This document shows, in pieces, positions 8,196 to 64,000 of a stretch of DNA of 64,000 nt. How positions within the stretch are numbered: the stretch's first letter is position 1; each line of letters starts with the position of its first letter. A program made the position numbers and the translations under genes. The DNA comes from Candidatus Woesearchaeota archaeon (GTDB lineage Archaea; Nanobdellota; Nanobdellia; Woesearchaeales; GW2011-AR9): positions 132,583 to 196,582 of the forward strand of contig JACOZP010000008.1 of assembly GCA_016181265.1 (NCBI GenBank). The letters are read 5' to 3'. Under the pieces are notes generated by a model. The model searched no databases and was not told the DNA's origin. It saw only the letters and a list, made by a program, of their open reading frames with translations.

Positions 8196-8249
8196 CTTTT
8201 TACCAACTGTTCTCCAAACTTTTTTAAATGGATGAAGTATCTTCTTGTT

Positions 8250-39609: not shown

Positions 39610-39624
39610 TTCCACTACAGTGGA
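39610..39624. repeat. ORB-like dyad TTCCACTACAGTGGA
   Basis: Inverted repeat TCCAC/GTGGA inside the candidate origin. Confidence 0.4.
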
Positions 39625-40025: not shown

Positions 40026-40040
40026 TTTTTCCATTTCCAT
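40026..40040. repeat. TTTCCAT tandem (TTTTTCCATTTCCAT)
   Basis: Shares the TTTCCAT core with the ORB-like elements. Confidence 0.4.
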
Positions 40041-40200
40041 AAGAAATATCATTAACTAGTTAAATGGTACTAATTTGTTGATTGAATTTTAGTCCCATTC
40101 TGCGCAGAGAACTGATCGTTGTCAGTTTTCTTGCGCTTTCAGACGTTTCCTGTATCCATAATTAAAGAAGATTTTACCTAGTTCATTAAATTTTTTCTTG

Positions 40201-40225
40201 TTTTCCATTAGAAACGATGGGGTGG
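40201..40225. repeat. ORB-like element TTTTCCATTAGAAACGATGGGGTGG
   Basis: Matches the archaeal origin recognition box pattern including the 3' G-string. Confidence 0.55.
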
Positions 40226-40312
40226 CGGTGGTTGATCAGGGATTTCCAATTATTTTAGGTTGACTTATTGTTAAATGCAATTATTTTGGCTGGTGCTTTC
40301 ATTTAATTAGTC

Positions 40313-40335
40313 TTTTCCATTAATTTCTAAGAAAT
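40313..40335. repeat. Direct repeat of TTTTCCATTA (TTTTCCATTAATTTCTAAGAAAT)
   Basis: 10/10 identity with 40201-40210. Partial dyad TTTCCATTAATTTCTAAGAAA. Confidence 0.45.
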
Positions 40336-40367
40336 GTTTATATAGTTTATATTGTGTTTTTCTACTT

Positions 40368-48646: not shown

Positions 48647-48994
48647 ATGAAAACACTAAAATTAATGGCTTTAGGAGTTCTTTTAGGTGCAGGCGTCAGC
48701 AATTGTGAACCCGATGTGGAAAATAATTATTATAGTGGATCGGGAATTACTCCATCTGGTGCATACAGGGAATACACCTGTAGGGATGCTGCTGAAAGTT
48801 GGGGTAATTGTATGAGTCAACCAGGTTGGGACGATAATAAACAAATTCCCTCTAGTTATATTACACAATTAGCGGATGATTGCGAACGCCTTCCAGACCC
48901 TCAAAACTGTATTGATTGTGTTGTATCAAGTCCTTGTGATCCTAAACATAAAAAAAGTCCATTTAATTTTTGTGAAGAAGAATGTCCTTTGTAA
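48647..48994 (+). CDS. Small secreted Cys-rich (lipo)protein, family A (ENNYY...CIDCxxSxC)
   Basis: 115 aa. Signal peptide MKTLKLMALGVLLGAGVSNC. 10 Cys. Paralog of 52047-52433. Directly upstream of a giant Cys-rich protein. Confidence 0.6.
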   Translation: MKTLKLMALGVLLGAGVSNCEPDVENNYYSGSGITPSGAYREYTCRDAAESWGNCMSQPGWDDNKQIPSSYITQLADDCERLPDPQNCIDCVVSSPCDPKHKKSPFNFCEEECPL

Positions 48995-49071
48995 TTTTAT
49001 AATTATTTTTCTTCTTTTATTTTTAGGTAGATTTATAAATTTCTATCTCTTATCAATGTGATGAGGGATAT

Positions 49072-51966
49072 ATGAGAAAAAGAGGATTACTTATAGTACT
49101 AGTTATTGTTCTATTAATCTCTCTTACTATTAATATTTCTGCTGCGGATCCTTTAATGTCTATTGAGAAGAAATTAAACGATCAGAAAGTGCTGGCGTTA
49201 GGTAAAATTGTCAACGCAGCTTATTCCGCGGGTTGTGATGCAGGATCAGATGATGACTGTTGGTATGATGGGGATGGGGGGATGAAAGGTGGGGAAAATA
49301 TCGTTGTTGATAACAATCGGGTCGCTATTACTTTAGATGTTGTTACTCCTTCCACCATAATTACAGGTCATGGTGAGTATGAATGTGACAATGTGGGTGA
49401 TGATTTAAATGCATTAGGAAATAAAGGAAATTCTCAAGGTTGTTTTGTAGGCTTAATTGATAAAGATTCAGGGGATTATGACGATGGTGCAGTAGGATAC
49501 GCGGCGAAAGGCACAATCTTGGATCATCAATACAAATCCGTCGCTTTTGCAGGACGTTATACTGCTTGTGATGACGATGATGCAAATGATGCCAAGAAAG
49601 GCCTGGTTGAAGCTCGTTTTAAGACAGGTGGAGTCAACGGCCCAATGTATCTTTGTTCGGGGGATAGTCAATGGCATATCTGTAAAGATGATCGAGGAGA
49701 AGAAAATCCCCCGTATTACGGAACGTATAGTTATGGTGAAGGAAATAGCATCTATAATTGTAGCGCTAATGAACAAGATGTAGTGACTTGGATTAAGCTT
49801 CCAGGTGTCGATAATGATCATGATCTTTACACCGATTTAGCTGGCGATTGTCGTGACGATCCCACCAACGATCCGCAGTTTTGTAAAGTGATCACTACCG
49901 CTGATTGCAGCGGTGAAGTAGGAGCATTGAAATATGCTTCTTGTGCGGTCTGTATCAATCCTAGCCAACCAGAACGAGGAGGGGATGGCATCGATAACAG
50001 CTGTACTACTGGGAAGACTGGTGATAGTGTTCTTACTGTTGATGACAATATGGACTTGCCGTTGTATAAAGAAGTGTGTAATCAAGAATTTGAATTTAGT
50101 CCGGAGAGCAGCGAGCAGAACCGTTGTTGTGGTGATGACGGGATTAGAGATGTTGGCGCAGTGATCAATACACTCTCTGGTGAATACTTGTGTCTCAACG
50201 GTCAAGAGGGGGAAAAAGAATGGAAATGGATTTCTGCTGGTGTGAATAAGTTTACAATTTTTACAGTAAATAAAATTGCAGAAAGGTCCTATGATCTTGT
50301 CTCAAACGGAGAACGTTGGAAAGCGTGTTCTGCGAGTACGGAGGGGAAACTCGAAGCGTCTGCTTTTTTCCCGAATGATGCAGCGCGATTTTATTGCAGT
50401 TCTACTGATGATGAAGCAGTCTGGGCGGATTGTGCGAAAGTATCGGAGAATGGTATAAAGCAAAGAACTGTTGGTCAAGGTGTTTTCGATCTGATGAATT
50501 TTGTTAAAGATAGTTCGATCCATTTCAGCAGCCAAGGCGGATTTACTGCCTACGAGATGATCTATGGAAAGCGTTATCCTTCTTTTGCTGGTTATGATTA
50601 TCTCGATGTCTATTTTCAATTTACGGATGAAACGTTGGAAGAAGGAGTAGGACTCCGTCTGGATGCATGGTCTACTAAGGGGAAGATTGCAACAGAAAAT
50701 GTGATGGGATATGTCATCAATGGAGCTTCGCTAGTTGGTAAGAAAACATATCATGCACAGATTCCCATGCAAGGATGGAGGGATGTTACAATTATTTCTT
50801 TTGTCCCAGTTAAAACTACTTTAGAATTGAAGAATGTCCATCTTTCTAAAAAGGGAAATGATCCCGTCTGTGCGGGAAATCTCTGGCTGGATTCTCTTGA
50901 TGCAGAAGATCTTTCGGTTGAAGAAGGTCAGATGTGCACTGCTTTAGGGTTAGCGTGGCTAGGTGATAAAGTAGAAGATCCTTCACTGCGCTGTTGCGGT
51001 AATACGGCTGGTGAATATGGTGTCGGTGACGAGAAGGGGTGTTGGAATTCACAGAGTGTTGATATTGGTCAGAGGATGACAAATGTTCAATTTGAATTAA
51101 CGTACGGAAAGGGAGAGTGGACGTATGGGACGACTGCCCAAAGTATCTCTGCTGATGTTGTTATCTCTTCTCCAACGGAATCTAAAACTGTTCATTGTTC
51201 ACAAACTGTCGATAGTTCTCAACCAACAAAATTATGTGAAATTGAATTTAGCCTCTCACAATTTAGAGATGCTACTCTCATCAATGTAAATGGTAGCCGA
51301 GCTTATTTTGCTGATCCTCTTCAACCAGAAGCGTATGATGAATCGTCTACTTCTCTAAAATATGATGACCTTCTTTCTATTGGTAAAGAGAAGAGTATTT
51401 TTTATGTGATGGGTGTGGCGGATACTCTTACTCAGGCTTATTCTTTTAATCCTTCGGTTACTGAAACATTGGCTTATTCATGTGATTCTTCGCCTTGCCG
51501 GATCCATCTGAAAGGGGTTCCTCCTTATACGATCCACAATAATTTTCCACAAAAATATGATCTCTACTTCGTGACAGGTGTTGACGGGAAAGAGATTCGT
51601 ACTCTCATTGATAAAGAGAAAACCGTGTATGCTCCCGATGGTTGGTTAGAGGTTGATGCTGTTCCGTTACAGGTGCTTTTTGCGGGAACGGCATTTCTTG
51701 GTTGCGGCGACACTACTTCTTTTGGGGCTGTTTCGCTAGTGTCTGAGAAAGTATGTTTTGCACAGAAAGTGGATACCGATGGGTTCTATTGTGATCCTTT
51801 CGGCAATTGGAAGAACGATGAGCTTCCGATGACGAGCTATGATGCAGAGAATAACATCCAACTAGTCCCTGGAATAGTGCACCAACCAGGAGATCGTAAT
51901 CACACTTCCTCTATCGTCTTTGGTAGGAATCTTTTAGAGAATCCTATGTTAAGTTTAACAAAGTAA
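49072..51966 (+). CDS. Giant secreted cysteine-rich protein A (964 aa)
   Basis: Signal peptide MRKRGLLIVLVIVLLISLTINISAADP. MopE-like Asp/Cys motif (DNDHDLYTDLAGDCRDDPTNDPQFC). RCCGDDG and RCCGNTAGEYG motifs shared with protein C. Many Cys. Confidence 0.7.
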   Translation: MRKRGLLIVLVIVLLISLTINISAADPLMSIEKKLNDQKVLALGKIVNAAYSAGCDAGSDDDCWYDGDGGMKGGENIVVDNNRVAITLDVVTPSTIITGHGEYECDNVGDDLNALGNKGNSQGCFVGLIDKDSGDYDDGAVGYAAKGTILDHQYKSVAFAGRYTACDDDDANDAKKGLVEARFKTGGVNGPMYLCSGDSQWHICKDDRGEENPPYYGTYSYGEGNSIYNCSANEQDVVTWIKLPGVDNDHDLYTDLAGDCRDDPTNDPQFCKVITTADCSGEVGALKYASCAVCINPSQPERGGDGIDNSCTTGKTGDSVLTVDDNMDLPLYKEVCNQEFEFSPESSEQNRCCGDDGIRDVGAVINTLSGEYLCLNGQEGEKEWKWISAGVNKFTIFTVNKIAERSYDLVSNGERWKACSASTEGKLEASAFFPNDAARFYCSSTDDEAVWADCAKVSENGIKQRTVGQGVFDLMNFVKDSSIHFSSQGGFTAYEMIYGKRYPSFAGYDYLDVYFQFTDETLEEGVGLRLDAWSTKGKIATENVMGYVINGASLVGKKTYHAQIPMQGWRDVTIISFVPVKTTLELKNVHLSKKGNDPVCAGNLWLDSLDAEDLSVEEGQMCTALGLAWLGDKVEDPSLRCCGNTAGEYGVGDEKGCWNSQSVDIGQRMTNVQFELTYGKGEWTYGTTAQSISADVVISSPTESKTVHCSQTVDSSQPTKLCEIEFSLSQFRDATLINVNGSRAYFADPLQPEAYDESSTSLKYDDLLSIGKEKSIFYVMGVADTLTQAYSFNPSVTETLAYSCDSSPCRIHLKGVPPYTIHNNFPQKYDLYFVTGVDGKEIRTLIDKEKTVYAPDGWLEVDAVPLQVLFAGTAFLGCGDTTSFGAVSLVSEKVCFAQKVDTDGFYCDPFGNWKNDELPMTSYDAENNIQLVPGIVHQPGDRNHTSSIVFGRNLLENPMLSLTK

Positions 51967-52046
51967 ATTTGAGTAGAAAATATTTATAAATAATCCTCAA
52001 ATTGGGATACTATTCGGTTTTAGGCGTGTTCTTGGAGGACTATACA

Positions 52047-52433
52047 ATGATACGGAAAGTAATGGTAGGTGCGCTCTTGGGATATAATATTTTAGCCTGC
52101 GGACCAACAACTGAGAATAACTATTATGGTATTACACCCAGTGGCCGGGATGGTTCTTTTTCCTGCGCTGATGCGGGAGAGGTTGAACGTCTTTGTAAGT
52201 TAGACTTAACTGGAAGAGATGATAAATTTGCAGATAATTCCTGGACTGATTGTGTTGCGAAGGGATGTGAATATTACCACTTTAGTCAAGCATGTATTGA
52301 TTGTATGGTTGCCAGCGAATGTGTTGATCAACCTAAAGAATCAGGAATGCCTGAAACTCCTTGGGAATTATGCGCCGCGCAAGGCCAATGTCCTAAACAA
52401 CCTAAAGAATGGGCATTTGATGTTTGTTATTGA
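52047..52433 (+). CDS. Small secreted Cys-rich (lipo)protein, family A paralog
   Basis: Start at MIRKVMVGALLGYNILAC (lipobox-like LAC), GGAGGA 7 nt upstream. ENNYYGITPSGRDGSFSC...CIDCMVASEC aligns with 48647-48994. Confidence 0.55.
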   Translation: MIRKVMVGALLGYNILACGPTTENNYYGITPSGRDGSFSCADAGEVERLCKLDLTGRDDKFADNSWTDCVAKGCEYYHFSQACIDCMVASECVDQPKESGMPETPWELCAAQGQCPKQPKEWAFDVCY

Positions 52434-52590
52434 TAAATTCTTTTTATTTTACTTTTCTCTTTCTCTATCGCTACATTTATATAGTTTTTACTCTTAATTT
52501 CTGTTAGTACCATGAATTGGAAAAAAGAGGTTTTGATTAATGTACTTTCTCGTATTTCTACTTCAACGTTCTCAAAAAAGGTGATAAACA

Positions 52591-52950
52591 ATGAAAATAG
52601 AAGTTAGTATTACAAAAGGAAAGTTTTGGACTCTAACAGCGATGTTAGTCTTTGTTGTTAGTATTTTTGTATTTGCGGCTAAACCAACTCCTGTTGGCCA
52701 TAGTGTTGATGAGGTAGAAGGGCTGAGTGAGCTTCAGAAGAAAGTTAATGATCTTGCTGCAAAGAGTGAATGGCCCGAAGGTTCTTACTGTGTGTGGAAG
52801 AAAGGAGATTGTCCAACTGGGTTTAGTGAGGCAAGTTTACATATTGATGCTGAAGATGATGGGGATTGGAATACGGGTGGTCCTATCGGTGATAGTAAAG
52901 AAGGTGGGAAAGATAATGTTGACATTTATGCGTGTTGCAAAACTTCATGA
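52591..52950 (+). CDS. Small membrane-anchored/secreted Cys-containing protein
   Basis: 119 aa. N-terminal TM (FWTLTAMLVFVVSIFVFAA). CVWKKGDCP...YACC. 4 nt ATGA overlap with the next gene. Confidence 0.45.
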   Translation: MKIEVSITKGKFWTLTAMLVFVVSIFVFAAKPTPVGHSVDEVEGLSELQKKVNDLAAKSEWPEGSYCVWKKGDCPTGFSEASLHIDAEDDGDWNTGGPIGDSKEGGKDNVDIYACCKTS

Positions 52951-55304
52951 ACCAAAAACCAATACTCCTCTTTGTACTTTTTCTTTCTAGCATTTCGTTT
53001 GCTGCAGCATTAGAGTGTTCTGTCTCGCAGACTGCTTGTAATCAACCGGGAGAAGCAATTATTTTGTGCCTCTCTGATCAGGCAAACGCACATGCCGAAC
53101 TCCCCCAGAGCATTGGCGGTGTGCAAAGCTGCTCCAATTATCAGTGGAAATTATGTTGTAAAGATATGTTTGTAAGTAATGATTGTAGAGCCGATAATCA
53201 GATTGCTTGGCTCGCAGCTCCGACGAATTCTCACGCAGCGCAGAGCAGTGGTTCAACATATTCTATTCCTGTCTGTGTTAATGGTTTACGTGAAACAACA
53301 TGTTCGACCTCTTCTTTTTCTGGCTCAACGTGTGTTCTTTCATTTTCAAGCAAAACTAATGCACATATCGCAAGTTGTGATGAGTCAAGTTATAAGAATC
53401 GAGTTTATTGCGCGGTAAATTCAGATAATGACAAAGATGGTTATGCGGCGAATATCGATTGTGATGATGATAATAAAAATGTAAATCCTGCAGCGGAAGA
53501 GATCGGCGATGGTTTGGATAATGATTGTGATGGTCTGATCGATGGTGATGATTCTGACTTGCTTCTCCTCCCAAAAGGGTGGTATCAGGTTTCTACGGAA
53601 TTAGATAAAGATCAATTTGGTTCCTATACTGCTGAAGGGGTTGAAGTGAAGACTTTAGAAACAGGCCAGAATGTCTTTACACTCACCGATTCAGGAAGAA
53701 AAGGTCTTCTTTCTAAGAAGATAAAGATTGAGAAAGGGAAAGAGTATGTTGCGAGAGGAGTGTTGTCATGTGAAGGGACAATACAGCTCGTCTTTGATGA
53801 TACTGTTGCGGAGGAGGAAGAAAGCGGCTTTTTGGGGTTTCTGTTGGGAGTTGACCTGGTAAATTCAGCAACAGGAAAAGATTCTCTTTCTGTCGTTGCA
53901 AATTCTGGCGAAGCAGAATACGCAGCGTTGTTTGTCGATGTTAAAGGAGAGAATTGTGAAGTGCGTGATCTACAGATTGATCTGAAAGGAAAAATACAAC
54001 CTGTCGAGTACAATGATGCGGTCCAACCAAGATCTTTACCTATCGAGCCGACGACAACGTTTGCTGCTGCTGCCTGCTGTCCTCAAAATACCTGTTGGAA
54101 TGGTTTTTCTTGTGTTGAGAATATGCGCGACCAGACTTTCTTGTCAGAGATAATCACAGAAAAAACAGTATACCAATGCATTGACGGCAACTGGGTCTTC
54201 CGCGCGAAATTATATGATTGGAACAATGAGGAATTTGGTTCCTGTCCCAATGAAGGGCAGTGTTTCGTCTTGAGTTCGCAGAAAGATGCTTCGCCGGAGG
54301 CGAAGGCTAGTGATTTTTACTCGGGAAAATATCCTTTGTGTGTCAATAATGGGGAGTATATTTTTGATCACTATTGCCATGAGGGAAATTGGGTGACACG
54401 GACGCAGCTTGCTGCGGAGTACTTGCTCAAAGCCGCTCCAAGTACTGATTTCACACTTTACTGTACTAATCCTCGCGATGCGCTAGTGAGTTTGGAGAAC
54501 CAAGATCAATTTGTCTTAGGGGACCCGGTGGGTGTTGTGTCTGGACAAGCGGGTGGTCTGTTGGCGGTGGATAAGCCTCAACCAACACGTATCTGTTTCC
54601 CCGACCTGACGGAATCAGGAAAAATGCTTGTTGATGACGCTGATAATACTTGCATCAATAATGTTTGTCTTTTACAAGATACTGATGGAACTATTGCTTT
54701 TGCCACAACGTTGAACGAGGATGTTAATGATGTTACCGGTTCATTCGTGCAAGCGTTAGGGATTTCACCTGAGAACTTCGCTCAGTCTTGTAGCGGTGAA
54801 GGGGAGTATAAGACTTGCGTCATCAATGGTATAGACGGTGAGATTTATTATTCTCCAACATTAAACGCATTGATCTATAGTAAAGATGGTGTGTCGTTCG
54901 ATCCAGGCATGTTTGAGACGATCATCTCTTTCTTCACAAAATTATTTGGTGGAGCAGTTGATGAGACTACTCTCATCATTCCAGCAAACAAAGCGGTTCC
55001 TTTCATCTATCTCTCTAAAAGTGGAGATAAATCCGCTCAAGCATTTGTGGAAGATAATGGCAGAGATGCAGCGGGGAATCATAATCTTACTCTAGTCGCT
55101 AATTATTCTGGGTTCAAAACCCCAATCTGTCTCTTTGTGAATCATCTGGCGGCTCCCTCGTCTGCTGGTCAGGGGGTGTTAGGTGAATTAGCAGGGCAAA
55201 GTGGTTTTGTCTGTGTTGATAAGGATGAAATACAAGAAATTGTTGCGACAAAAGATGTTGGTTATCTTTGGCCGCAATTAACGGGCAGGTTGAGGGTCGA
55301 ATAG
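52947..55304 (+). CDS. Giant secreted cysteine-rich protein B (about 785 aa) with MopE-type putative metal-binding motif
   Basis: Signal peptide (ILLFVLFLSSISFAAALE). DKDGYAANIDCDDDNKNVNPAAEEIGDGLDNDCDGLIDGDD matches the DxDxDG...DCDD.N..VNP.A.E.CDG.DNDCDG consensus. Numerous Cys. Confidence 0.7.
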   Translation: MNQKPILLFVLFLSSISFAAALECSVSQTACNQPGEAIILCLSDQANAHAELPQSIGGVQSCSNYQWKLCCKDMFVSNDCRADNQIAWLAAPTNSHAAQSSGSTYSIPVCVNGLRETTCSTSSFSGSTCVLSFSSKTNAHIASCDESSYKNRVYCAVNSDNDKDGYAANIDCDDDNKNVNPAAEEIGDGLDNDCDGLIDGDDSDLLLLPKGWYQVSTELDKDQFGSYTAEGVEVKTLETGQNVFTLTDSGRKGLLSKKIKIEKGKEYVARGVLSCEGTIQLVFDDTVAEEEESGFLGFLLGVDLVNSATGKDSLSVVANSGEAEYAALFVDVKGENCEVRDLQIDLKGKIQPVEYNDAVQPRSLPIEPTTTFAAAACCPQNTCWNGFSCVENMRDQTFLSEIITEKTVYQCIDGNWVFRAKLYDWNNEEFGSCPNEGQCFVLSSQKDASPEAKASDFYSGKYPLCVNNGEYIFDHYCHEGNWVTRTQLAAEYLLKAAPSTDFTLYCTNPRDALVSLENQDQFVLGDPVGVVSGQAGGLLAVDKPQPTRICFPDLTESGKMLVDDADNTCINNVCLLQDTDGTIAFATTLNEDVNDVTGSFVQALGISPENFAQSCSGEGEYKTCVINGIDGEIYYSPTLNALIYSKDGVSFDPGMFETIISFFTKLFGGAVDETTLIIPANKAVPFIYLSKSGDKSAQAFVEDNGRDAAGNHNLTLVANYSGFKTPICLFVNHLAAPSSAGQGVLGELAGQSGFVCVDKDEIQEIVATKDVGYLWPQLTGRLRVE

Positions 55305-55305
55305 G

Positions 55306-55605
55306 ATGAAGATATTAAAACTGATCATTATCGTCCTGCTTGTTTTGTTTTTCTTCGGGGCTTTTTCTCAATGGAAATATTTTATCAAACCGATCTCCGA
55401 AGAGTGTGGCCAGTTTAATCTTAATCCTGATGTTTCTCATCAGAAGAGTTGTGATTGCAGCGGCTTCTCTTTTTCTGAGATTGCAAAAGGTTCAACTAAC
55501 AACTATTGTTTTGGCACCTGCAAGATGTGTGAATGTTCTAACTACTATCTGGAAAATCAAACCAGAAAGATTGTGGATTGTTCTCAGTTTGGTCAAGACG
55601 ATTAA
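55306..55605 (+). CDS. Small secreted Cys-rich protein
   Basis: 99 aa. Signal peptide MKILKLIIIVLLVLFFFGAFS. CDCSGFSF...CFGTCKMCECSNYY. Preferred over the overlapping 5' extension of the 55340 ORF. Confidence 0.5.
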   Translation: MKILKLIIIVLLVLFFFGAFSQWKYFIKPISEECGQFNLNPDVSHQKSCDCSGFSFSEIAKGSTNNYCFGTCKMCECSNYYLENQTRKIVDCSQFGQDD

Positions 55606-55651
55606 TCTCCTAACAAACTTTTATAAGGATAAACTCTTTATTCTAAAAGAT

Positions 55652-58144: not shown

Positions 58145-58239
58145 GATATATCAAAATTTGATCGCTTATTTTAAACATTTTCTAGACGAGAACGTTCACC
58201 AAACATTTATAAACGTTAAAGCATTTATGAAATTGAATC

Positions 58240-61200
58240 ATGAGAACCCCAAAAAGAGGTTTAGCGTTAGCTTCTGCTTTATCGTTCCTAGTGATATTTC
58301 TGAGTGTTTTCATACCTGCTGTTTCTGCGCAAGAAACCAATCCAACACAAGCAAAAGGGTGTTATTTTTATTCGCAAGGAAGTCTTGATGTTTCTTGTAA
58401 AACCGGCGGGGTCACTGAAGAAGTAGCGCAAGAGGACTGCGCGGCACATAGCGGTTGTGTTCTTCCTAATTGGTTTAAAGCAGGGTCGACCTGTGCGGAT
58501 ATTCCCGAATGTAAAGTTGTCGCTTGTGATGCGGCTAAATATGCTTGTCAGGAAGTTCCTTTAGGCACGTGTGTCCAAGCTGGTGGGAAAGAGATTACTG
58601 CTGAGAACAAAGCGGCAGAGTGTACAAAAGGCTGTTGTGTTGTCCCCCTGCCTGGTGGTCCCTTCTGCGCTCCTGAATTAGTCTTTAAATCGACATGCGC
58701 AGAGATTGCAGCATCGAAACAAGGAACAGCAAGTTATAAGTTTTATAATCCGGACTCGATGACATTGGCTCTTTGTCAACAGCAATATTGCAAAGCCGCA
58801 GTTGCGGAAGGGAGCCTGATAGGAATTGTAAAAGATCCTACCGGACAGGCCATCGCAGGCGCGACGATCTCAATCTTAGGCACTGTTTCTTCTACTCAAA
58901 CTAGTGCTACGGGAAGTTATTCTCTTCTTCAACTTGTGCCCGCTACCTACTCAGTAAAAGTCTCAAAAGCAGGTTATATGGAGGTAATCAAAAGCGTATC
59001 TGTGTCTGCGGGAGATGCAACTACTTTTGATTTCCAATTACAACCAGCAGCAGGCGCATCATCTTTACGTGTCACTGTCCGTGATACTGTACAGAAACTG
59101 TTGCCGGGGATTACAGTTACGTGGAAAGGTCCTGTTCAAGGAACGACCAAGACAGATAGCCAAGGAACTGCTCTCGTTTCTAATATTCCCGCTGGTGAGT
59201 ATACTTTACTGGTGAGCGCGGTGGGATATGTTTCCCAGGAACAGAAGAGAGTTATCGGCGCAGGAGAGACCGTCGTTGATGTTACTTTACTAAATGCCGT
59301 CTTTCAAGGAGTGCAAGGAACAACATTTGTAAACGGTGAAAAGACATATGGTGTTTCGATCTATGTTGATGGTTTTTTCAAAGCTAAGTCTCAATATCCC
59401 GATGGGAAATATAGTGTCTCTCTGCCTGCCGATGGGAAAGAACACACTGTTTCTGCGACGTACCAGAGCTTTGTCTCTTCGATCGAAACAGTAGCGGTTG
59501 CAAAAGAACAAACAATACAGAAAGATCTCTATCTGGTTTCGTTAAAAGGGGAGTGTGCTGTGGATGGTCCTTCTCCTCAGAAGAATGTTCAAGTGTTCAC
59601 TGCTTCTTCGGTATTAGGAGAAAAAAAGGTCCGTCTCGTCTGGGAAAAACCGTGTCCTGAAGTAGCAAGTTATACGTTACAAAAATCAAGAGGAGAAACA
59701 CTTCTAGCAACAAATACCATTTCTGGATTGGAGACCATCTACGTTGATGATAAAGAGTTGATGTGGAAAGAAACATATTCTTACACTCTTGTCGCTCACT
59801 TTGATTCGGGCTTATCATCAGAGAATGCCGTGACCGCAACAATCACTTTAGGTGATGAGGAATGTGAAGGCAGATTTGTTGATGCAACTAGTACTTGGTC
59901 TTCATTCTGTCTTGTAAATGAAAGACAGACGGTTTACACTTGTACAAATCAGAATATACTCACACCTGCACAGACATGTTCTTCTTTAGGAACGACGTGG
60001 TATTGTGCTCAGACAACGGGCACAACGGCAAGCTGTAAAGATGCGGGAATCTGTTCTGTCAATACCGCTCCTTTTGGTTTATATGCAGTTGAGGACGTAT
60101 GCTATGGACAGGACGACGAAAAATTCTGTTATTATGATTACACAAAAAATACTATTGCAAACCAATGTGCCAGCTGTGCAACTGTGACAAGCTGTTTCGA
60201 TTACCGGAGCAGGGGTGCATGCGAGAAGAATAATTGTGTCAGTTCTCAATGCGCGTGGGTGGATGTTGCATCCAACCCTCCACTTGTTGATTATAGTTAT
60301 CTGTTCTCATCTGACATCTATAGTCCTTTAGTGACCTCGACTGAAACGGGTGCTGGTTATTGTGTTGAGAAGGAATATGACAGTGACGAGAAGTGTTCTC
60401 TCTGTAGCTCTAGTTCGAGCTTATTTGAGAATTACTTTTGTACTCCTAATGTGTGTTCAAGTCTCGGTCGCTGTTTTGCTAATCCTGAACAGACAAGCTG
60501 CGAGCAGTGTAAAGAGAGCCCAGCACCGGATGCGACCTGTTACCGCTACACTTCAGAAACGGAATGTGTTGGAAAAGGAGGAATAACAAAAGATGAATTT
60601 GGGCGTCTTTCGTTTTCTGGCGATCGCTGTTCCTGGGGTCGTTGTTCTTGGGATGGGGCAAGCTGTATTAAAGATGGTAATGCTGATAAAAAGGATGATT
60701 GTGCTCTCGTGAAAGGCAGCTCAGTCGCTTGTGCTGTGGATAACACTCCACCCACAACAACTATGTCCGGCGCTTTGGTAACGACACAATCCCCGCTCGT
60801 CACTTTCACTGCTGACGATTCTTCTGCAAAAGCAGGTCAGACGAATCCTCTTAAAACTTTATCCTATTGTCTAAGTTCCATCGGCGGACCAAATGTGTGT
60901 ACTGCCGATCAATTTGTTTCAGTAGAGTTTAAGGGATTGACTCCTACGGAGAGCATTCCATTTAATATCTCTCAATTTCCTACGTTGGGTGGAGCAAAGC
61001 CAGAGGGAAATATCTTCACTATCTATTTCTATTCGGAAGATGTTTTTTCCAATCGTGAGCAAATCCAGGAAGGAGTATTATATATTGATACTGTTTCTCC
61101 TCAATTTACAGTTGTTGAAGAAGTTGCAACTACCGGGACGGTCTCTCAGCTGAATGTTCATCTTGAAGAGGTCAATGAACCAATTAGTTGTACTTTTTCG

Positions 61201-64000
61201 TTACAGCAGGTCTTACCTCTCGGTGCTGTGCAGACAACGACTGTTCCTCTGGAGGTTCTCGATAAGAAAGCATTGTTTTCCGACCTGAAAGGGATTAAGT
61301 ATGAGTTAACAACAACGTGTACGGATAAGCATAATAACATTAACACCGTGACTGAAGCATATTCGTTCGACCTAGAGCCGAATATTAATATTATCTCTCC
61401 TTCAAAAAATGAAGTTGTTGTGAAGACTTCTGTTCTCTTTAAAGTGGAAACAACGATAGGTTCTACCTGCGTGTTATATGATGCAGCAACTAACCAGAAA
61501 ATCGCCGATTTCGTGACTGATGAGGACGGGTTTAATCACGGGACGGAGCCTATCTCTCTGGCAGAGAGAAAATATGTGGCGGAACAGAAAGTTGTTTGTA
61601 CTGAACTGCTTACGGGAAAAACATACGAAGATTATTTTGATTTTACGGTAGATACTTCTCCTCCTTCTGTTATGATCGAACTTCAAGAAGACTCTAGGGT
61701 GGTACAACATAAGGACACAGGGTGGAAAGAATCGTTTATCACTTCAGCTAATGTCCATCTGGCTTGTTCTTTGAATGGTCTAGCCTGCCAACAAATCTAT
61801 TATTGTCTTGGTGAAGCATGTACTCCTGCCGATCTTTCGGTGTTTAAATCGTACACTTCCTCTTTTGTGGTCGAACAAAGCACAAAGATCTGTTATTATG
61901 CGACACGTGAAGGGGAACAATTGTATAACAATATCTCTTGTGGATTCATCGGGATAGATGGTTTTGGTATCACGTTAGATCTGCCACCTAGTTTTACTTA
62001 CAATGATGAAGTTTGGGGAGTGAGCGCATCTCCTACATTTGATTGGCAGTTCTTCACAAAAGTTCCTACTCAAGAATGCAAGTTTGATTTTATCTCTTCG
62101 TTTACGTATGATGCGCTGGCAAAATATAAATGGAAAGAAAAAAATAGCGGTGAAAAATATCTTTTCGGTAGCTTTCCAGAAGGTGTCTTTTCATCGTTTA
62201 ATCCTAATGGTGGAATCAAAACTGTGTATGTCGCCTGTAAAGATGGGACTGGTGAAGTTAGTCCTATCCAGAAAATGAATTTAGAATACGATCCAACTCC
62301 TCCGGAAATAAAGACTGTGAGCAGTTCCCCAGACCCCGTAATTGAAGGAATAAATACTTTACTCTCTGTTTCGACTGATGATAAGACGACGTGCGTATTT
62401 ATCAATGTAGAAAATGGGAAAACTTACTCTTTTCCTGGGAAGGAGGAACATGTCTTAGATACAACTCACGAGACACTTTTTTATGTCGATGATTTCATCG
62501 GTGATAAGAAAGAGTATGTTCTTAGTGTGATGTGTGAAAACGGTGCTGGACTGAAATCTGCAGTGCAAAATCTAACTATCTCTGTCGATTACACACAAAA
62601 AGGCAGTATCACTTCAATCTATCCTCAAAAAGCGTTTGTTCAGAATGGCCCTCTTTCTGCCGAAGTTATTACCTCAAAGAGCGGCTATTGTGAGCATAAG
62701 ATTGGTGAGGGATATCTTCTCTTTAGCGAAACTAATGGTAATGTACACAAGACCATACTTAATGGCACTGGAGAAGGAGCATATACGCTTCCATTTCGTT
62801 GCTTCTTTGGCGACACTGAACAGACGGGGGAATTTAGTTACACCATCGACAAGCAGCCACCTATTATCGAGTCTATCGATGATGGGATAGTGACGTGTGG
62901 TAAAGATGAGTGGGCAGTTCTCGTGAAGACAAATGAATCTGCACTCGCAAATTACTCCTACAGCGTTTATGCAGCTACCGGTTCGACGATACTTACTGGC
63001 AACAAAACCTCGTTCAGTAAAAGTGATTTACTCTTGGAAAGTTCGGCAGGTCCAGATTCTTCTTTGGTAGTTCCTCTGTCCAGCTTTATTCCGTCGAGCC
63101 AAAATACTACTACAGGTTTTATTATCTCAATCAAAGCAATTGATGCTGCAGGAAATATTGGGCCCGTTAAAGATAGCGATGGAGTGATCGTTTCCAATTC
63201 TTCCCATCCAACTTGCCTTAAAGATTCTAAACTACCTTCGGTTACTTTTTCAACAGTGGACAGCACTTCTTGTTCTTCACGGCTGGTCTCAATGAGTTGT
63301 GGTGATGATACGGGTTGCCAGAATTATCTTTATGGTGTTGGAACGACTGTTGATTCTTGCATTCCTTTGAAACAATACAATGGTAAGAACATTGAAATCA
63401 CTTCTACAAGTTATCTCTGCTATGCAACAAAAGATGCAGTAGGGCAGAACAAGTCGAGTGCCACGCAAGTTATATTTGAGGATAAAGATAGTGATGGAGT
63501 TGCTGATACTTGTGATAGTTGTCCTGAGACTTTGGCAGGTAAGATTGCAGATAGTCAAGGTTGTGCCGAAGGCCAAGTTACTTTACTTCAAGGAGAAATT
63601 GATAGTGATGGGGATGGGCTTCCTGATGCTTGGGAAGAGCAATTCAACTCCTTGACTTGTCAGCTTTCTTCAGTCAGCAAGGATAGTGATGGTAACAGCA
63701 TCTCCGATGGACTGGAAGATTATGATAGTGATGGCAAGAATAACTATGAGGAATATACTTCTGGAAAGAACCCTTGTGTTGCAGAGGTTTCTATCTCTCA
63801 GGACGAAAAACCAGCAGTGCCTGTTTCTTTCCCTACACCTTCGTTTAGCACAGCGTGGGTACTGTTGATCTTGGGGATCATCTTTTCATTTGGAGGATTT
63901 GGTTATCTTCTCTATTCTTACTTAGCATCTGGAAAGAGGACTACCTCAGGACCACAGCGTGAGTTGCCTGCAATTAAGTTGGCTGCTGCAGCTCGTACAC
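58240..64000 (+). CDS. Giant multidomain surface adhesin-like protein D (more than 1920 aa; 3' end beyond window)
   Basis: Frame open from ATG 58240 to the window end (no +strand ORFs listed in this frame). Signal peptide MRTPKRGLALASALSFLVIFLSVFIPAVSA. Cys-rich N-terminal module. Two CarboxypepD_reg-like domains (GIVKDPTGQAIAGATISILG...; VTVRDTVQKLLPGITVTWKG...). Repeated Ig-like modules. Thrombospondin-type-3-like DxDxDG repeats (DKDSDGVADTCDSCPE, DSDGDGLPDAWEE, DSDGNSISDGLEDYDSDGKNNYEEY). Hydrophobic C-terminal TM (AWVLLILGIIFSFGGFGYLLYSYL). Confidence 0.7.
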   Translation, partial: MRTPKRGLALASALSFLVIFLSVFIPAVSAQETNPTQAKGCYFYSQGSLDVSCKTGGVTEEVAQEDCAAHSGCVLPNWFKAGSTCADIPECKVVACDAAKYACQEVPLGTCVQAGGKEITAENKAAECTKGCCVVPLPGGPFCAPELVFKSTCAEIAASKQGTASYKFYNPDSMTLALCQQQYCKAAVAEGSLIGIVKDPTGQAIAGATISILGTVSSTQTSATGSYSLLQLVPATYSVKVSKAGYMEVIKSVSVSAGDATTFDFQLQPAAGASSLRVTVRDTVQKLLPGITVTWKGPVQGTTKTDSQGTALVSNIPAGEYTLLVSAVGYVSQEQKRVIGAGETVVDVTLLNAVFQGVQGTTFVNGEKTYGVSIYVDGFFKAKSQYPDGKYSVSLPADGKEHTVSATYQSFVSSIETVAVAKEQTIQKDLYLVSLKGECAVDGPSPQKNVQVFTASSVLGEKKVRLVWEKPCPEVASYTLQKSRGETLLATNTISGLETIYVDDKELMWKETYSYTLVAHFDSGLSSENAVTATITLGDEECEGRFVDATSTWSSFCLVNERQTVYTCTNQNILTPAQTCSSLGTTWYCAQTTGTTASCKDAGICSVNTAPFGLYAVEDVCYGQDDEKFCYYDYTKNTIANQCASCATVTSCFDYRSRGACEKNNCVSSQCAWVDVASNPPLVDYSYLFSSDIYSPLVTSTETGAGYCVEKEYDSDEKCSLCSSSSSLFENYFCTPNVCSSLGRCFANPEQTSCEQCKESPAPDATCYRYTSETECVGKGGITKDEFGRLSFSGDRCSWGRCSWDGASCIKDGNADKKDDCALVKGSSVACAVDNTPPTTTMSGALVTTQSPLVTFTADDSSAKAGQTNPLKTLSYCLSSIGGPNVCTADQFVSVEFKGLTPTESIPFNISQFPTLGGAKPEGNIFTIYFYSEDVFSNREQIQEGVLYIDTVSPQFTVVEEVATTGTVSQLNVHLEEVNEPISCTFSLQQVLPLGAVQTTTVPLEVLDKKALFSDLKGIKYELTTTCTDKHNNINTVTEAYSFDLEPNINIISPSKNEVVVKTSVLFKVETTIGSTCVLYDAATNQKIADFVTDEDGFNHGTEPISLAERKYVAEQKVVCTELLTGKTYEDYFDFTVDTSPPSVMIELQEDSRVVQHKDTGWKESFITSANVHLACSLNGLACQQIYYCLGEACTPADLSVFKSYTSSFVVEQSTKICYYATREGEQLYNNISCGFIGIDGFGITLDLPPSFTYNDEVWGVSASPTFDWQFFTKVPTQECKFDFISSFTYDALAKYKWKEKNSGEKYLFGSFPEGVFSSFNPNGGIKTVYVACKDGTGEVSPIQKMNLEYDPTPPEIKTVSSSPDPVIEGINTLLSVSTDDKTTCVFINVENGKTYSFPGKEEHVLDTTHETLFYVDDFIGDKKEYVLSVMCENGAGLKSAVQNLTISVDYTQKGSITSIYPQKAFVQNGPLSAEVITSKSGYCEHKIGEGYLLFSETNGNVHKTILNGTGEGAYTLPFRCFFGDTEQTGEFSYTIDKQPPIIESIDDGIVTCGKDEWAVLVKTNESALANYSYSVYAATGSTILTGNKTSFSKSDLLLESSAGPDSSLVVPLSSFIPSSQNTTTGFIISIKAIDAAGNIGPVKDSDGVIVSNSSHPTCLKDSKLPSVTFSTVDSTSCSSRLVSMSCGDDTGCQNYLYGVGTTVDSCIPLKQYNGKNIEITSTSYLCYATKDAVGQNKSSATQVIFEDKDSDGVADTCDSCPETLAGKIADSQGCAEGQVTLLQGEIDSDGDGLPDAWEEQFNSLTCQLSSVSKDSDGNSISDGLEDYDSDGKNNYEEYTSGKNPCVAEVSISQDEKPAVPVSFPTPSFSTAWVLLILGIIFSFGGFGYLLYSYLASGKRTTSGPQRELPAIKLAAAART

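What the first reader, a model, noticed from the sequence alone, without database searches (positions are those of the whole stretch)
48647..64000. Four consecutive 'small Cys-rich secreted protein + giant Cys-rich surface protein' cassettes
From 48.6 kb onward the +strand repeats the same pattern four times: 48647 small then 49072 giant A; 52047 and 52591 small then 52947 giant B; 55306 small then 55652 giant C; then giant D (more than 1900 aa). A signal-peptide-bearing 100-140 aa Cys-rich protein sits immediately upstream of a 790 to more than 1900 aa Cys-rich secreted or anchored protein. Two of the small proteins are clear paralogs (ENNYY(S)GITPSG...C and CIDC[VM]V[SA]S[PE]C). Giants A and C share a C-C-G-D motif (RCCGDDG / HACCLGDP / RCCGNTAGEYG). 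Giants A and B carry MopE-type putative metal-binding Asp/Cys motifs, and D carries TSP3-like Ca-binding repeats, CarboxypepD_reg and Ig-like modules. The gene spacing (4 nt ATGA overlaps, gaps under 100 nt) suggests co-transcription. This looks like a dedicated, modular cell-surface or attachment system, as expected for an episymbiotic or host-attached small-genome archaeon, with the small proteins as candidate partners, chaperones or tip subunits. I cannot place the Cys-rich cores in any named family from sequence alone.
Basis: partly seen in the sequence, partly recalled or inferred. Interest (0 to 1): 0.8.

Follow-up and report, generated by a model that had tools for sequence, protein, structure and literature searches.

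The report
Woesearchaeal giant surface-protein and pilin-like locus
The genes are real, but they are not four repeated small-plus-giant cassettes: they are the front end of a roughly 30 kb cell-surface locus, conserved across Woesearchaeota, that continues into a long run of pilin-like genes and is a strong candidate for these tiny uncultured archaea's attachment apparatus.

Summary
The gene layout is confirmed. On the + strand lie S1, giant A, S2, S3, giant B, S4, giant C and giant D, in a Ca. Woesearchaeota (DPANN) genome. Cysteine content is 4.1%, against 1.2% in the rest of the window.

The "four cassettes" reading is only partly supported.
- The giants are unrelated to one another.
- A and B are two halves of what is a single ~1,700-aa protein in most relatives (77 of 77 long homologs).
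- S1 and S2 are paralogous lipobox lipoproteins. They occur in 1-5 copies, always next to A, and only in the split-A clade.
- S3 carries a partial ApeC lectin-like match. S3 overlaps B's start codon, and S4 starts 1 nt after B's stop.
- S4 is present in only two lineages. D has no small partner.
- A, C and D each have their own conserved TATA box.

The conserved unit is larger than the finding. In 20 divergent Woesearchaeal loci the order C-D-E-F-G-H-...-R is colinear. C and about 14 downstream proteins start with a [KR][GA] motif followed by a ~20-residue hydrophobic stretch, which resembles an archaeal prepilin (class III) signal.

My best explanation is a type-IV-filament-like adhesion or surface apparatus with giant disulfide-rich components. 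No assembly ATPase lies nearby, and no known pilin HMM matches. I rate it a new variant of a known kind, of moderate to high interest.

The parts
48647..48994 (+). S1: small Cys-rich putative lipoprotein. Its signal peptide ends in ...GVSNC, and an NNYY motif follows. It is the fastest-evolving member of the S1/S2 family.
   Evidence: Paralog of S2 (E 1e-19). The ortholog in L002 is 49% identical with dN/dS 0.24. The family flanks A in 1-5 copies in six genomes. No Pfam or NCBIfam hit. It has its own TATA box and a GGTG ribosome-binding site.
49072..51966 (+). Giant A (964 aa): a Sec-type secreted protein with 33 Cys. It is the N-terminal two-thirds of what is a single ~1,700-aa protein in most Woesearchaeota.
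   Evidence: Its profile finds 224 homolog clusters. All 77 hits of at least 1,400 aa also carry B's C-terminal half. The L089 1,738-aa protein aligns to A and then to B. No Pfam or PDB match. The AF2 model is unusable (pLDDT 37.6). A conserved TATA box lies about 35 nt upstream.
52047..52433 (+). S2: small Cys-rich lipobox lipoprotein (…NILAC|GP, then NNYYGITPSG). It is a paralog of S1.
   Evidence: 78% identical to the L002 ortholog with dN/dS 0.08. 55-58% identical to the L005 and L007 members. It has its own TATA box.
52591..52950 (+). S3: small secreted or anchored protein with a partial ApeC-like (apextrin C-terminal, lectin-type) module. It overlaps the B start codon (ATGA).
   Evidence: Pfam ApeC E 1.1e-8, 35.6 bits against a 26.5-bit cut-off, but only profile positions 66-134 of 208. 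Orthologs are found in L002/L090 (69% identity) and L007 (44% identity), always overlapping B's start. dN/dS is 0.21. The KG in its N-terminus is not conserved, so Sec targeting is likelier than a class III signal.
52947..55304 (+). Giant B (785 aa): a Sec-type secreted protein with 33 Cys. Residues ~300-785 correspond to the C-terminal part of the fused AB protein of relatives. The N-terminal ~300 aa, including the MopE motif at 171-199, appears only in the split form.
   Evidence: Pfam MopE E 1.5e-7. Orthologs are 63-84% identical, and every Cys-containing column in the invariant list of the four-sequence alignment is conserved. Full-length homologs occur only in Woesearchaeota MAGs.
55306..55605 (+). 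S4: small secreted 8-Cys protein that starts 1 nt after B's stop codon.
   Evidence: A 53%-identical homolog with all 8 Cys sits at the same B|C position in L007/L008 (tblastn E 1e-32). It is absent from L090, L003, L010 and L009. The metagenome gene caller missed it and extended C instead. NCBI locus-tag numbering leaves a slot for it (inference).
55652..58144 (+). Giant C (830 aa). It has a class III (prepilin-like) N-terminus, MNKKR…KKG|QITIFIILG…, then a long alpha-helix, an unmatched alpha/beta domain, tandem Ig/cadherin-like domains, and an unmatched Cys-rich C-terminal domain. It is the candidate pilus-associated adhesin.
   Evidence: The start site is fixed by ortholog alignment and a conserved TATA box. 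55 homologs were found; every one that carries a source name is from Woesearchaeota/Nanoarchaeia or is labelled only 'archaeon'. In the 48-sequence alignment G16 is not listed as conserved, while Q17, T19 and F21 are at least 90% conserved. The AF2 model has pLDDT 86.8 and its helix 16-58 starts at G16/Q17. Fold searches return only Ig-like adhesion modules. No viral relatives.
58240..64000 (+). Giant D (2,033 aa; the last ~113 aa lie beyond the window). It has a signal peptide, an N-terminal Cys-rich module, CarboxypepD_reg and Ig-like domains, three D-x-D-x-D-G Ca-type motifs, a C-terminal TM helix and a charged cytoplasmic tail. It resembles an S-layer or stalk protein.
   Evidence: The tail sequence was read in the L090 ortholog. 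Orthologs of ~2,000-2,150 aa lie directly upstream of E-F-G-H in 20 of 20 compared long loci.

Best explanation
**What it is.** Window 48.6-64 kb is the 5' part of a roughly 30 kb cell-surface locus of about 25 genes, vertically inherited in Woesearchaeota. The locus sits in the core genome, after MCM, TBP, ThiF, Ncs6, SAMP and RNase P p30.

**Core components**
1. A secreted, disulfide-rich giant. It is one polypeptide in most lineages and is split here into A and B.
2. C, a giant whose N-terminus looks like an archaeal prepilin signal. Behind it come an Ig-like stalk and a Cys-rich head.
3. D, a ~2,000-aa protein anchored by a C-terminal transmembrane helix. It resembles an S-layer or stalk protein and has Ca-type motifs and a cytoplasmic tail.
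4. About 14 small to mid-sized proteins (E to R), just beyond the window. Almost all start with M..(N)KK[GA] followed by about 20 hydrophobic residues.

**How it most likely works (inferred).** A prepilin peptidase encoded elsewhere processes C and E-R. These proteins assemble through their hydrophobic N-terminal helices into a type-IV-filament-like appendage or pseudopilus complex. C, and perhaps A/B, form the adhesive distal part. D forms the membrane-anchored envelope or base component. Extracytoplasmic disulfides and Ca2+ stabilise the whole assembly. Its role would be cell-cell (host) attachment.

**The small proteins in the window are lineage-specific accessories.**
- S1 and S2 are membrane-tethered lipoproteins that travel with the separate A gene.
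- S3 is a lectin-like (partial ApeC) protein translationally coupled to B.
- S4 is an 8-Cys secreted protein that starts 1 nt after B's stop.

**What is shown and what is inferred.** Shown: gene content, homology, synteny, the fusion, purifying selection, the N-terminal motifs and the fold of C. Inferred: signal-peptide cleavage, filament assembly, adhesion, lipidation, and that E-R follow D in this very genome (seen in the 80%-identical relative).
For: - **Synteny in close relatives.** The order S1-A-S2-S3-B-C-D is conserved in the 80%-identical relative. The order A-B-C-D is conserved in four further lineages.
- **Downstream pilin-like genes.** In the closest relative, D is followed by E, F, G, H, I and J. 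Their N-termini are GRKG|LGVGQ, KRG|Q, KRA|Q, KKG|Q, KKG|Q and RKG|A, each followed by a hydrophobic stretch.
- **Wide conservation.** The F profile finds 67 metagenomic loci. In 20 long loci compared with a reference locus, the order C-(D-like)-D-E-F-G-H-I-J-K-...-R-RPA is colinear at 25-55% identity.
- **The motif is specific to the locus.** The [KR][GA]-plus-uncharged-hydrophobic-window rule is met by 0 of 51 background genes in the window. It is met by 9 of 13 locus genes in L090 and by most downstream families.
- **Structure of C.** The AF2 model has pLDDT 86.8. Its long N-terminal helix starts at G16/Q17, and tandem Ig/cadherin-like modules typical of adhesins follow.
- **A-B fusion.** Shown in L089 and in 77 of 77 long homologs.
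- **Disulfide chemistry.** Cysteine is enriched 3.4-fold. A DsbA-like thioredoxin gene lies in the same window.
- **Selection.** dN/dS is 0.05-0.24 for all genes that have an ortholog in L090; S4 has none there and was not tested.
- **Literature.** Archaeal type IV pilus loci with one large S-layer-like protein anchored by a C-terminal TM helix, one large signal-peptide 'adhesin or minor pilin', and Cys-rich minor pilins are described in PMC4858521. Pilin islands in DPANN 'dark matter' are described in PMC6393860. Ultrasmall groundwater cells carry pili-like appendages that reach into host cells (PMC7906910), and two of the relatives found here are MAGs named NC_groundwater ... Ag.
Against: - No Pfam, NCBIfam or PDB-sequence match links C or E-J to any known pilin or class III signal family.
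- No FlaI/PilB-type ATPase signature, TadC platform or prepilin peptidase was seen within about 10 kb of the locus in any of the archaeal loci held, about 977 kb in total.
- Positively charged residues before an N-terminal TM helix are also what a plain signal anchor looks like. Cleavage is untested.
- A and D also carry an AxA-type signal peptidase I site, so they are probably ordinary Sec substrates.
- E-R were not observed in the window's own genome, because the window ends inside D.
- Neither the N-terminal alpha/beta domain nor the Cys-rich head of C matched any solved fold, so 'adhesin' rests on architecture alone.
Confidence: 0.55

Rival explanations
1. Envelope or S-layer scaffold, not a filament. 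D is the S-layer or stalk protein. A/B and C are envelope-associated giants. E-R are uncleaved bitopic (signal-anchored) membrane proteins that organise a pseudo-periplasmic space or anchor the layer. No pilus-type assembly is involved.
For: - D has the architecture of an archaeal S-layer-type protein: about 1,850 extracellular residues, a C-terminal TM helix, and a partial match to an S-layer glycoprotein model.
- No assembly ATPase or platform gene lies near the locus in any relative.
- No pilin HMM matches.
- The locus is single-copy, lies in the core genome and keeps a strict gene order. That fits an essential envelope structure.
Against: - In about 15 unrelated families a Gly or Ala directly follows the last Lys/Arg before the hydrophobic stretch, often with Gln next. 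Simple signal anchors do not need this, and it matches the archaeal prepilin peptidase site.
- 0 of 51 background genes meet the rule.
- D's match to the S-layer model is 42 bits against a cut-off of 1,400, and it covers only the CarboxypepD_reg region.
Confidence: 0.25
2. There are four dedicated small-plus-giant modules. Each small Cys-rich protein is the specific partner, chaperone or tip subunit of the giant downstream of it.
For: - S1/S2-family genes flank A in all six genomes where A is a separate gene, even in L005, where no B was seen before the contig ends.
- S3 always overlaps B's start codon where it is present.
- S4 sits at the B|C junction in two lineages.
- All the small genes tested against L090 (S1-S3) are under purifying selection.
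Against: - The giants are unrelated, and the small proteins fall into three unrelated families.
- Copy number and side vary, with 1-5 copies upstream or downstream of A.
- L003, L010 and L011 have no small gene between A and B or between B and C.
- The fused-AB relative has none at all.
- S4 is coupled to B's stop codon, while C has its own promoter, so S4 pairs with B if with anything.
- D has no small partner.
Confidence: 0.15
3. A mobile or viral island, or a variable contingency locus, that encodes adhesins acquired horizontally.
For: - The proteins are giant, orphan and Cys-rich.
- S1 evolves fast (49% identity where the giants are 80%).
- The small paralogs vary in copy number.
Against: - The locus keeps the same chromosomal position, next to replication and translation genes, across lineages whose C orthologs are about 30% identical.
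- GC content matches the flanks.
- No integrase, tRNA or repeats were seen at the borders.
- No relative of C was found in 2.9 million viral contigs.
- dN/dS is low throughout.
Confidence: 0.03

Closest known systems
Archaeal type IV pilus loci with large accessory proteins (Thermoproteales subclades 4B/4G and the methanococcal Epd/'system 1' loci; Makarova, Koonin & Albers 2016, PMC4858521; bioRxiv 10.64898/2026.04.22.720090)
   Same: - They combine one large S-layer-like protein anchored by a C-terminal TM helix and carrying conserved cysteines, one large signal-peptide protein proposed as an adhesin or minor pilin, and many small, fast-evolving pilin-like proteins rich in conserved cysteines.
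- The pilins are often undetectable by standard HMMs.
   Different: - No ATPase or TadC lies in or near the locus here.
- The giants are far larger and more numerous: AB about 1,700 aa, C 830 aa, D about 2,030 aa.
- About 14 pilin-like families keep a fixed order across an order-level clade.
- None of the families matches the arCOG- or Pfam-derived pilin models available here.
- C has no DUF2341/PilY1-type domain.
DPANN 'dark matter' pilin islands (Makarova, Wolf & Koonin 2019, PMC6393860, Fig. 2A)
   Same: These are DPANN genomic islands of unannotated proteins that bear signal peptides and were interpreted as diverse pilins.
   Different: Those islands were recognised through adjacent FlaI/TadC genes and surface proteins. 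The locus here lacks such anchor genes. I could not check whether any island in that figure is the same locus, because figures and the FTP tables are not available here.
Type IV pili of episymbiotic CPR bacteria (Saccharibacteria; PMC9894109) and pili-like appendages of ultrasmall groundwater cells (PMC7906910)
   Same: An ultrasmall episymbiont uses pilus-type appendages to contact its host. The habitat is the same: groundwater MAGs.
   Different: Those are bacterial machinery with recognisable PilA/B/C/T proteins. There is no sequence relationship. Imaged DPANN cells were not assigned to particular genes.
ApeC-domain pattern-recognition proteins of amphioxus and molluscs (PMC8361754, PMC9585378)
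   Same: S3 matches the Pfam ApeC model above its gathering score. It is small, secreted and Cys-rich, and it contains one DXED-type motif (DAED).
   Different: A full ApeC domain is about 200 aa with eight conserved Cys and three DXED motifs. S3 covers about one-third of the model and has four Cys. Glycan or peptidoglycan binding is untested.
SPEARE giant surface proteins of Ca. Nanohaloarchaeum antarcticus (PMC6642349)
   Same: These are giant secreted or anchored proteins of a DPANN ectosymbiont, proposed to mediate host interaction.
   Different: No homology was detected. As I recall, SPEARE proteins carry protease, adhesion and endonuclease domains, and none of these is found here. The proteins here are multiple, Cys-rich and linked to pilin-like genes.

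Membership tests
Archaeal type IV pilin-like proteins / class III signal peptide substrates (TFF superfamily) | A short, positively charged leader ending in [KR][GA], followed directly by about 20 hydrophobic residues at the mature N-terminus | tested here: met
   C has ...AKKG|QITIFIILGLVILTVFLFLIF. Q17 is at least 90% conserved across 48 homologs. E-J in L090 and families E-R in 20 loci show the same pattern. 0 of 51 background genes meet the rule. A and D also meet the regex but have an AxA signal peptidase I site. S3's KG is not conserved.
Archaeal type IV pilin-like proteins / class III signal peptide substrates (TFF superfamily) | Sequence-profile match to a known pilin or archaellin N-terminal family, or to a solved pilin | tested here: not met
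   No Pfam or NCBIfam pilin or class III signal family at E <= 1 for C's N-terminus or for E-J. The I-family profile finds only unrelated TM helices in PDB sequences, and in Pfam only one member gives a Flp1_like hit at E 0.054.
Archaeal type IV pilin-like proteins / class III signal peptide substrates (TFF superfamily) | An extended N-terminal alpha-helix that begins at the mature N-terminus | tested here: met
   In the AF2 model of C (pLDDT 86.8), helix 16-58 begins at G16/Q17 and is followed by helix 61-86 and an alpha/beta domain. This was tested for C only.
Archaeal type IV pilin-like proteins / class III signal peptide substrates (TFF superfamily) | An assembly system: a prepilin peptidase (PibD/FlaK/EppA), a FlaI/PilB-type ATPase and a TadC/FlaJ platform | tested here: inconclusive
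   None was seen in the window or within about 10 kb of the locus in the loci held. The rest of the genome could not be read. Pilin genes are often unlinked from the ATPase in archaea (PMC4858521).
ApeC domain (PF16977), for S3 | HMM score above the Pfam gathering threshold | tested here: met
   35.6 bits against 26.5, E 1.1e-8. The L090 ortholog is listed as a weak hit.
ApeC domain (PF16977), for S3 | A complete domain of about 200 aa with eight conserved cysteines and three DXED motifs (PMC9585378) | tested here: not met
   Only profile positions 66-134 of 208 are matched. S3 has four Cys and one DAED motif. The L007 ortholog keeps the four Cys.
MopE-type putative metal-binding motif (PF11617) | HMM match above the gathering threshold | tested here: met
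   Met for B: 32 bits against 27, residues 171-199. Not met for A: no hit at E < 0.1. A has only a conserved Asp/Cys-rich stretch at 247-268 that aligns weakly to B's motif (blastp E 0.15).
Lipobox lipoproteins, for S1/S2 | A signal peptide ending in [LVI][ASTVI][GAS]C, with the Cys as the first mature residue | tested here: met
   S2 has ILAC|GP. Paralogs have LACGP, LGCGP, FACGP and MACGP. S1 has the variant VSNC (LSNC in L002). Lipidation, and the presence of any archaeal lipoprotein machinery, were not tested.
Kustd1514-type S-layer glycoprotein (NF052345), for D | A full-length model match above the cut-off | tested here: not met
   42 bits against a cut-off of 1,400. The match covers only residues 186-347, the CarboxypepD_reg domains.
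PilY1 / DUF2341-type pilus tip adhesins, for C or A | A DUF2341 or PilY1 beta-propeller domain | tested here: not met
   No such Pfam hit. Fold searches with the C model return only Ig/cadherin-like modules. The A model is too poor to search.

The most novel reading that the evidence does not exclude
The locus encodes an undescribed attachment organelle derived from a type IV filament and conserved across the whole order. About 14 different pilin-like subunits, in fixed gene order, would build a shaft or base. Three giant disulfide- and Ca-stabilised proteins (AB, C, D) would form the host-contact head and stalk. In the window's clade, AB has split and has recruited lipoprotein (S1/S2) and lectin-like (S3) accessories, possibly as an adaptation to a particular host envelope. 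This would be the first gene-level candidate for how uncultured Woesearchaeota attach to their hosts.
Probability: 0.3. Interest if true: 0.8.

Novelty: new variant of a known kind. Interest (0 to 1): 0.6.

Why it matters
As far as I know, Woesearchaeota are abundant in groundwater and sediments but uncultured, with unknown hosts and an unknown mode of attachment. This locus gives a concrete set of genes to test.
- It is single-copy and conserved in order across lineages whose orthologs share only 25-55% identity.
- It has a high-confidence structural model for one giant (C).
- It has a Rosetta-stone link between two others (A and B).
- It makes clear predictions: cleavage after [KR][GA], disulfide dependence, and location at cell-cell contacts.

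Metaproteomics, cryo-ET of size-fractionated groundwater, or heterologous peptidase assays could test these predictions. The result also shows that gene-order patterns read in one genome ('four cassettes') can mislead. Comparative data re-centre the unit on the giants and on a pilin-like array that lies outside the window.

Tried and rejected
- **Homology among the giants.** An all-against-all blastp gave no E value below 0.15. hhalign gave probability 2.1% for A against C and 3.0% for B against C. The 'CCGD' shared motif was dropped.
- **Named families.** Pfam, NCBIfam and PDB-sequence searches of A, B, C and the small proteins found nothing beyond the MopE motif in B, the partial ApeC match in S3 and generic domains in D.
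- **Structure of A.** The AF2 run with a 5-sequence alignment gave pLDDT 37.6, so the model was not searched.
- **Pilin membership.** HMM searches with single sequences and with the I-family profile found no match.
- **Assembly ATPase.** A Walker A plus Asp-box signature search over 977 kb of archaeal loci found none.
- **Viral origin.** No relative of C was found in IMG/VR.
- **A corrected error of mine.** I first thought S4 had no homolog anywhere, because it is absent from the closest relative. A tblastn search showed a conserved, uncalled homolog in L007/L008.
- **S3 as a pilin-like protein.** This was rejected because its KG is KRK in the L090 ortholog and a FAA|KP Sec-type site is conserved.
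- **Failed look-ups.** The exact sequences of the window's C protein and of the protein encoded at 8133-9584 were not on record.
- **RNA genes.** tRNA and Rfam scans of the window found nothing.

Full report
**1. What is in the sequence**

| Gene | Coordinates | Length |
|---|---|---|
| S1 | 48647-48994 | 115 aa |
| A | 49072-51966 | 964 aa |
| S2 | 52047-52433 | 128 aa |
| S3 | 52591-52950 | 119 aa |
| B | 52947-55304 | 785 aa |
| S4 | 55306-55605 | 99 aa |
| C | 55652-58144 | 830 aa |
| D | 58240 to past the window end | 2,033 aa in the full contig |

- These proteins contain 4.07% Cys. The 48 other genes of the window contain 1.19%.
- S3 and B overlap by ATGA. S4 starts 1 nt after B's stop.
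- Exact-sequence look-ups identify the source as a Candidatus Woesearchaeota MAG. S1 is HYT55_03335, A is HYT55_03340 and C is HYT55_03365.
- The rest of the window is archaeal housekeeping: gyrase A, ScpB, RNase J, PCNA, PolD, Cdc6, MCM, TBP, ThiF/Ncs6/SAMP and RNase P p30.
- The window has no tRNA gene and no Rfam match.

**2. Are the 'cassettes' repeats?**

They are not.
- An all-against-all blastp finds only one significant pair, S1 and S2 (E 1e-19, 36% identity). Every giant-against-giant comparison has E >= 0.15.
- Profile-profile comparison gives probability 2.1% for A against C and 3.0% for B against C. The 'C-C-G-D' motif is therefore not evidence of common descent.
- The Pfam results are mixed. 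B has a MopE motif above threshold. A has none. D has two strong CarboxypepD_reg domains and a sub-threshold TSP3 hit, although three D-x-D-x-D-G motifs are visible. S3 has an ApeC match above threshold that covers only a third of the model.
- PDB sequence searches found nothing informative.

**3. Comparative genomics of the close clade**

Homolog searches and contig look-ups recovered five related lineages.

| Locus | Relation to the window | Gene order |
|---|---|---|
| L002/L090 | giants about 80% identical | S1-A-S2-S3-B-C-D (no S4) |
| L003, L010, L011 | A about 50% identical | S-A-B-C-D, with A and B overlapping by 4 nt and no small gene between any two giants |
| L007, L008 | A about 43% identical | S-S-A-S-S-S3-B-S4-C-[one gene on the opposite strand]-D |
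| L005, L006 | A about 45% identical | S-S-A, then an opposite-strand peptidase gene, then three more S genes in L005 |

What this shows:
- The S1/S2 family always flanks A. It has 1-5 copies, on either side.
- Family members have a signal peptide ending in a lipobox Cys (…LAC|GP, …LGC|GP), followed by NNYY(G). They are therefore predicted lipoproteins.
- Where S3 is present, it always overlaps B's start codon.
- S4 is absent from the closest relative. It has a 53%-identical homolog with all eight Cys, missed by gene callers, at the same B|C junction in L007/L008.
- Against L090, dN/dS is 0.24 for S1, 0.08 for S2, 0.21 for S3 and 0.05-0.09 for A-D. These are real genes under purifying selection. 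S4 has no ortholog in L090 and could not be tested this way.
- Upstream regions aligned across four genomes show conserved TTTATAAA boxes before S1, A, S2, C and D. None precedes S3, B or S4. The likely transcription units are [S1], [A], [S2-S3-B-S4], [C] and [D…].
- The same alignment, together with the ortholog alignment, fixes C's start at 55652. One gene caller had chosen 55430.

**4. A and B are one protein elsewhere**

- In a more distant Woesearchaeon (L089; its C is 31% identical) the same chromosomal position, after MCM-TBP-ThiF-Ncs6-ThiS-p30, holds one 1,738-aa protein. Its residues 202-1202 align to A, and its residues 1278-1735 align to B 302-784.
- A profile of A, searched against 1.84 billion representative proteins, finds 224 clusters. 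Among the top 149 hits, all 77 proteins of at least 1,400 aa also contain B's C-terminal half.
- The split into A and B is therefore derived. B has a new N-terminal ~300 aa that includes its own signal peptide and the MopE motif.
- S2 and S3 sit at the split point.
- L089 has no S-family, S3 or S4 gene at this position.

**5. The locus is much larger than the finding**

- A profile of C finds 55 homologs of about 810-890 aa. All that carry a source name are from Woesearchaeota/Nanoarchaeia or are labelled only 'archaeon'.
- Downstream of D, the closest relative (L090) has genes E (178 aa), F (359), G (163), H (175), I (116) and J (110). Their N-termini are GRKG|LGVGQVFVYIVAAL, SKRG|QLDLPFNWIYVLIAG, KRA|QIQMTETIAVLFIFF, LKKG|QMEMIGLVVIV, HKKG|QGLSLNAIIVALLAL and MRKG|ATEMWWIIIGAV.
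- E and F also follow D in L010, L011 and L089.
- A profile of F recovers 67 metagenomic loci.
- In 20 long loci compared with a reference locus, D, F, G and H are found in all 20 and E in 19. The order C-(a ~350-aa paralog of D's N-terminus)-D-E-F-G-H-I-J-K-L-M-N-O-P-Q-R, followed by an RPA gene, is colinear at 25-55% identity.
- Almost every family from C to R begins M..(N)KK[GA] followed by about 20 hydrophobic residues.
- A simple rule asks for [KR][GA] within the first 40 residues, followed by an uncharged 18-residue hydrophobic window. No background gene in the window meets it (0 of 51). Nine of 13 locus genes in L090 meet it.
- This is the form of the archaeal class III (prepilin) signal peptide described in PMC4858521.

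**6. Structure**

- With a 48-sequence alignment, AF2 models C at mean pLDDT 86.8. Helix 16-58 starts at G16/Q17. It is followed by helix 61-86, an alpha/beta domain up to about residue 340, tandem beta-sandwich domains at about 340-590, and a Cys-rich C-terminal domain.
- The AF2 model of A is unusable (pLDDT 37.6).

**7. Interpretation**

The architecture has four elements:
- one giant secreted Cys-rich protein (AB);
- one giant with a prepilin-like N-terminus (C);
- one very large S-layer-like protein anchored by a C-terminal TM helix, with a cytoplasmic tail (D);
- many small Cys-containing pilin-like proteins (E-R).

This matches the general plan that Makarova et al. described for several archaeal type IV pilus loci (PMC4858521) and for DPANN 'dark matter' pilin islands (PMC6393860). 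Pili-like appendages reaching from ultrasmall groundwater cells into host cells have been imaged (PMC7906910). Two relatives found here are MAGs whose names (NC_groundwater ... Ag) point to groundwater sampling of that kind. I therefore favour a type-IV-filament-like attachment or surface apparatus (confidence 0.55).

Weak points:
- No known pilin HMM or solved pilin matches.
- No ATPase, platform or peptidase gene lies within about 10 kb of the locus in the roughly 977 kb of archaeal loci held.
- Cleavage is untested.

The main rival is an envelope or S-layer scaffold made of uncleaved signal-anchored proteins (0.25). A mobile or viral origin is effectively excluded by conserved synteny in the core genome, uniform GC content and the absence of viral relatives.

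**8. The small proteins**

- **S1 and S2.** As predicted lipoproteins they would be tethered at the membrane surface. Their constant adjacency to the separate A gene, and their absence where AB is fused, suggests a role tied to the split form. One possibility is that they hold or present A at the membrane. This is inference only.
- **S3.** Its partial ApeC match points to a carbohydrate- or peptidoglycan-binding module. ApeC proteins bind peptidoglycan and agglutinate bacteria (PMC8361754, PMC9585378). S3 lacks two-thirds of that domain, so it is a lead and not an assignment.
- **S4.** It is an orphan 8-Cys secreted protein.
- **Supporting context.** A DsbA-like thioredoxin gene (11350-12060), next to a DoxX-family membrane protein gene (12170-12721, minus strand), lies in the same window. 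This fits extracytoplasmic disulfide formation.

**9. Novelty and score**

In the searchable literature I found no description of this specific locus. I could not inspect the figures or supplementary tables of the arCOG papers.

It is best rated a new variant of a known kind, namely archaeal pilin-associated surface loci. Its distinguishing features are three or four giant disulfide-rich proteins, an AB split or fusion, and about 14 pilin-like families in fixed order with no linked motor. Interest is 0.6. A specialist in DPANN or archaeal cell-surface biology would find it a valuable, testable candidate for the Woesearchaeal attachment machinery. The original 'four cassettes' claim is only partly right, and the mechanism remains inferred.

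Noticed in passing
window 11350-12060 (+) and 12170-12721 (-): A DsbA-like thioredoxin (Thioredoxin_4 E 2e-36, DSBA E 3e-19) lies next to a DoxX-family membrane protein. Together they may form an extracytoplasmic disulfide-forming pair, which would matter for the many Cys-rich secreted proteins.
   Followed up: partly
window 39394-40367, between Cdc6 (38191-39393, -) and SpoIIM (40368-41234, +): This is an AT-rich intergenic region of about 970 nt; GC falls to 0.33 across 38-42 kb. It contains several AT-rich inverted repeats and a perfect 13-nt inverted repeat (39934-39946 / 40269-40281). It may be a replication origin beside Cdc6.
   Followed up: partly
window about 49030-49045, 55615-55627, 58200-58215, with the orthologous sites in L090, L003 and L007: Strongly conserved TTTATAAA (TATA-box-like) elements lie about 25-40 nt upstream of the start codons of A, C and D. 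This suggests short or absent 5' leaders and separate promoters.
   Followed up: partly
window 55306-55652: Gene callers disagree here. The metagenome caller omitted S4 and extended C to a start at 55430 (904 aa). The same omission occurred in L007/L008. Ortholog alignment supports S4 plus a C start at 55652.
   Followed up: yes
L105 1819-2886, L089 12585-13643 and others: Many relatives carry a ~350-aa Cys-rich gene between C and D that is a paralog of D's N-terminal module (D residues ~60-170). The window has no such gene.
   Followed up: partly
L088 (GCA_018671675.1, 204,970-bp contig): Here a C homolog (30% identity) sits away from any D/E/F genes, among other orphan giants of 1,201 and 815 aa. 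The C family is therefore not always in the canonical locus.
   Followed up: no
L093/L094 (relatives of L007): The pilin-like array stops after H. Next come two genes that by their sequence look to me like LemA and an HtpX-type protease (no family search was run on them). The I-R genes must lie elsewhere or be missing in this lineage.
   Followed up: no
window 4676-6556 (-): A 626-aa protein has a lamin-tail-domain (LTD) match just below the Pfam threshold (E 7e-8, 33.2 bits against 34.3). It may be another surface protein.
   Followed up: no
window 14627-16747 (-): A 706-aa fusion joins a glutamine amidotransferase/asparagine synthase module to a diphthamide synthase (Diphthami_syn_2) domain.
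   Followed up: no
L090 22009-22341 (J family): The small pilin-like protein J has a C-terminal 10-Cys module with a weak match to a myxobacterial Cys-rich repeat (TIGR04201, E 5e-4). Together with the I and M families it shows that the downstream pilin-like proteins are also Cys-rich.
   Followed up: no
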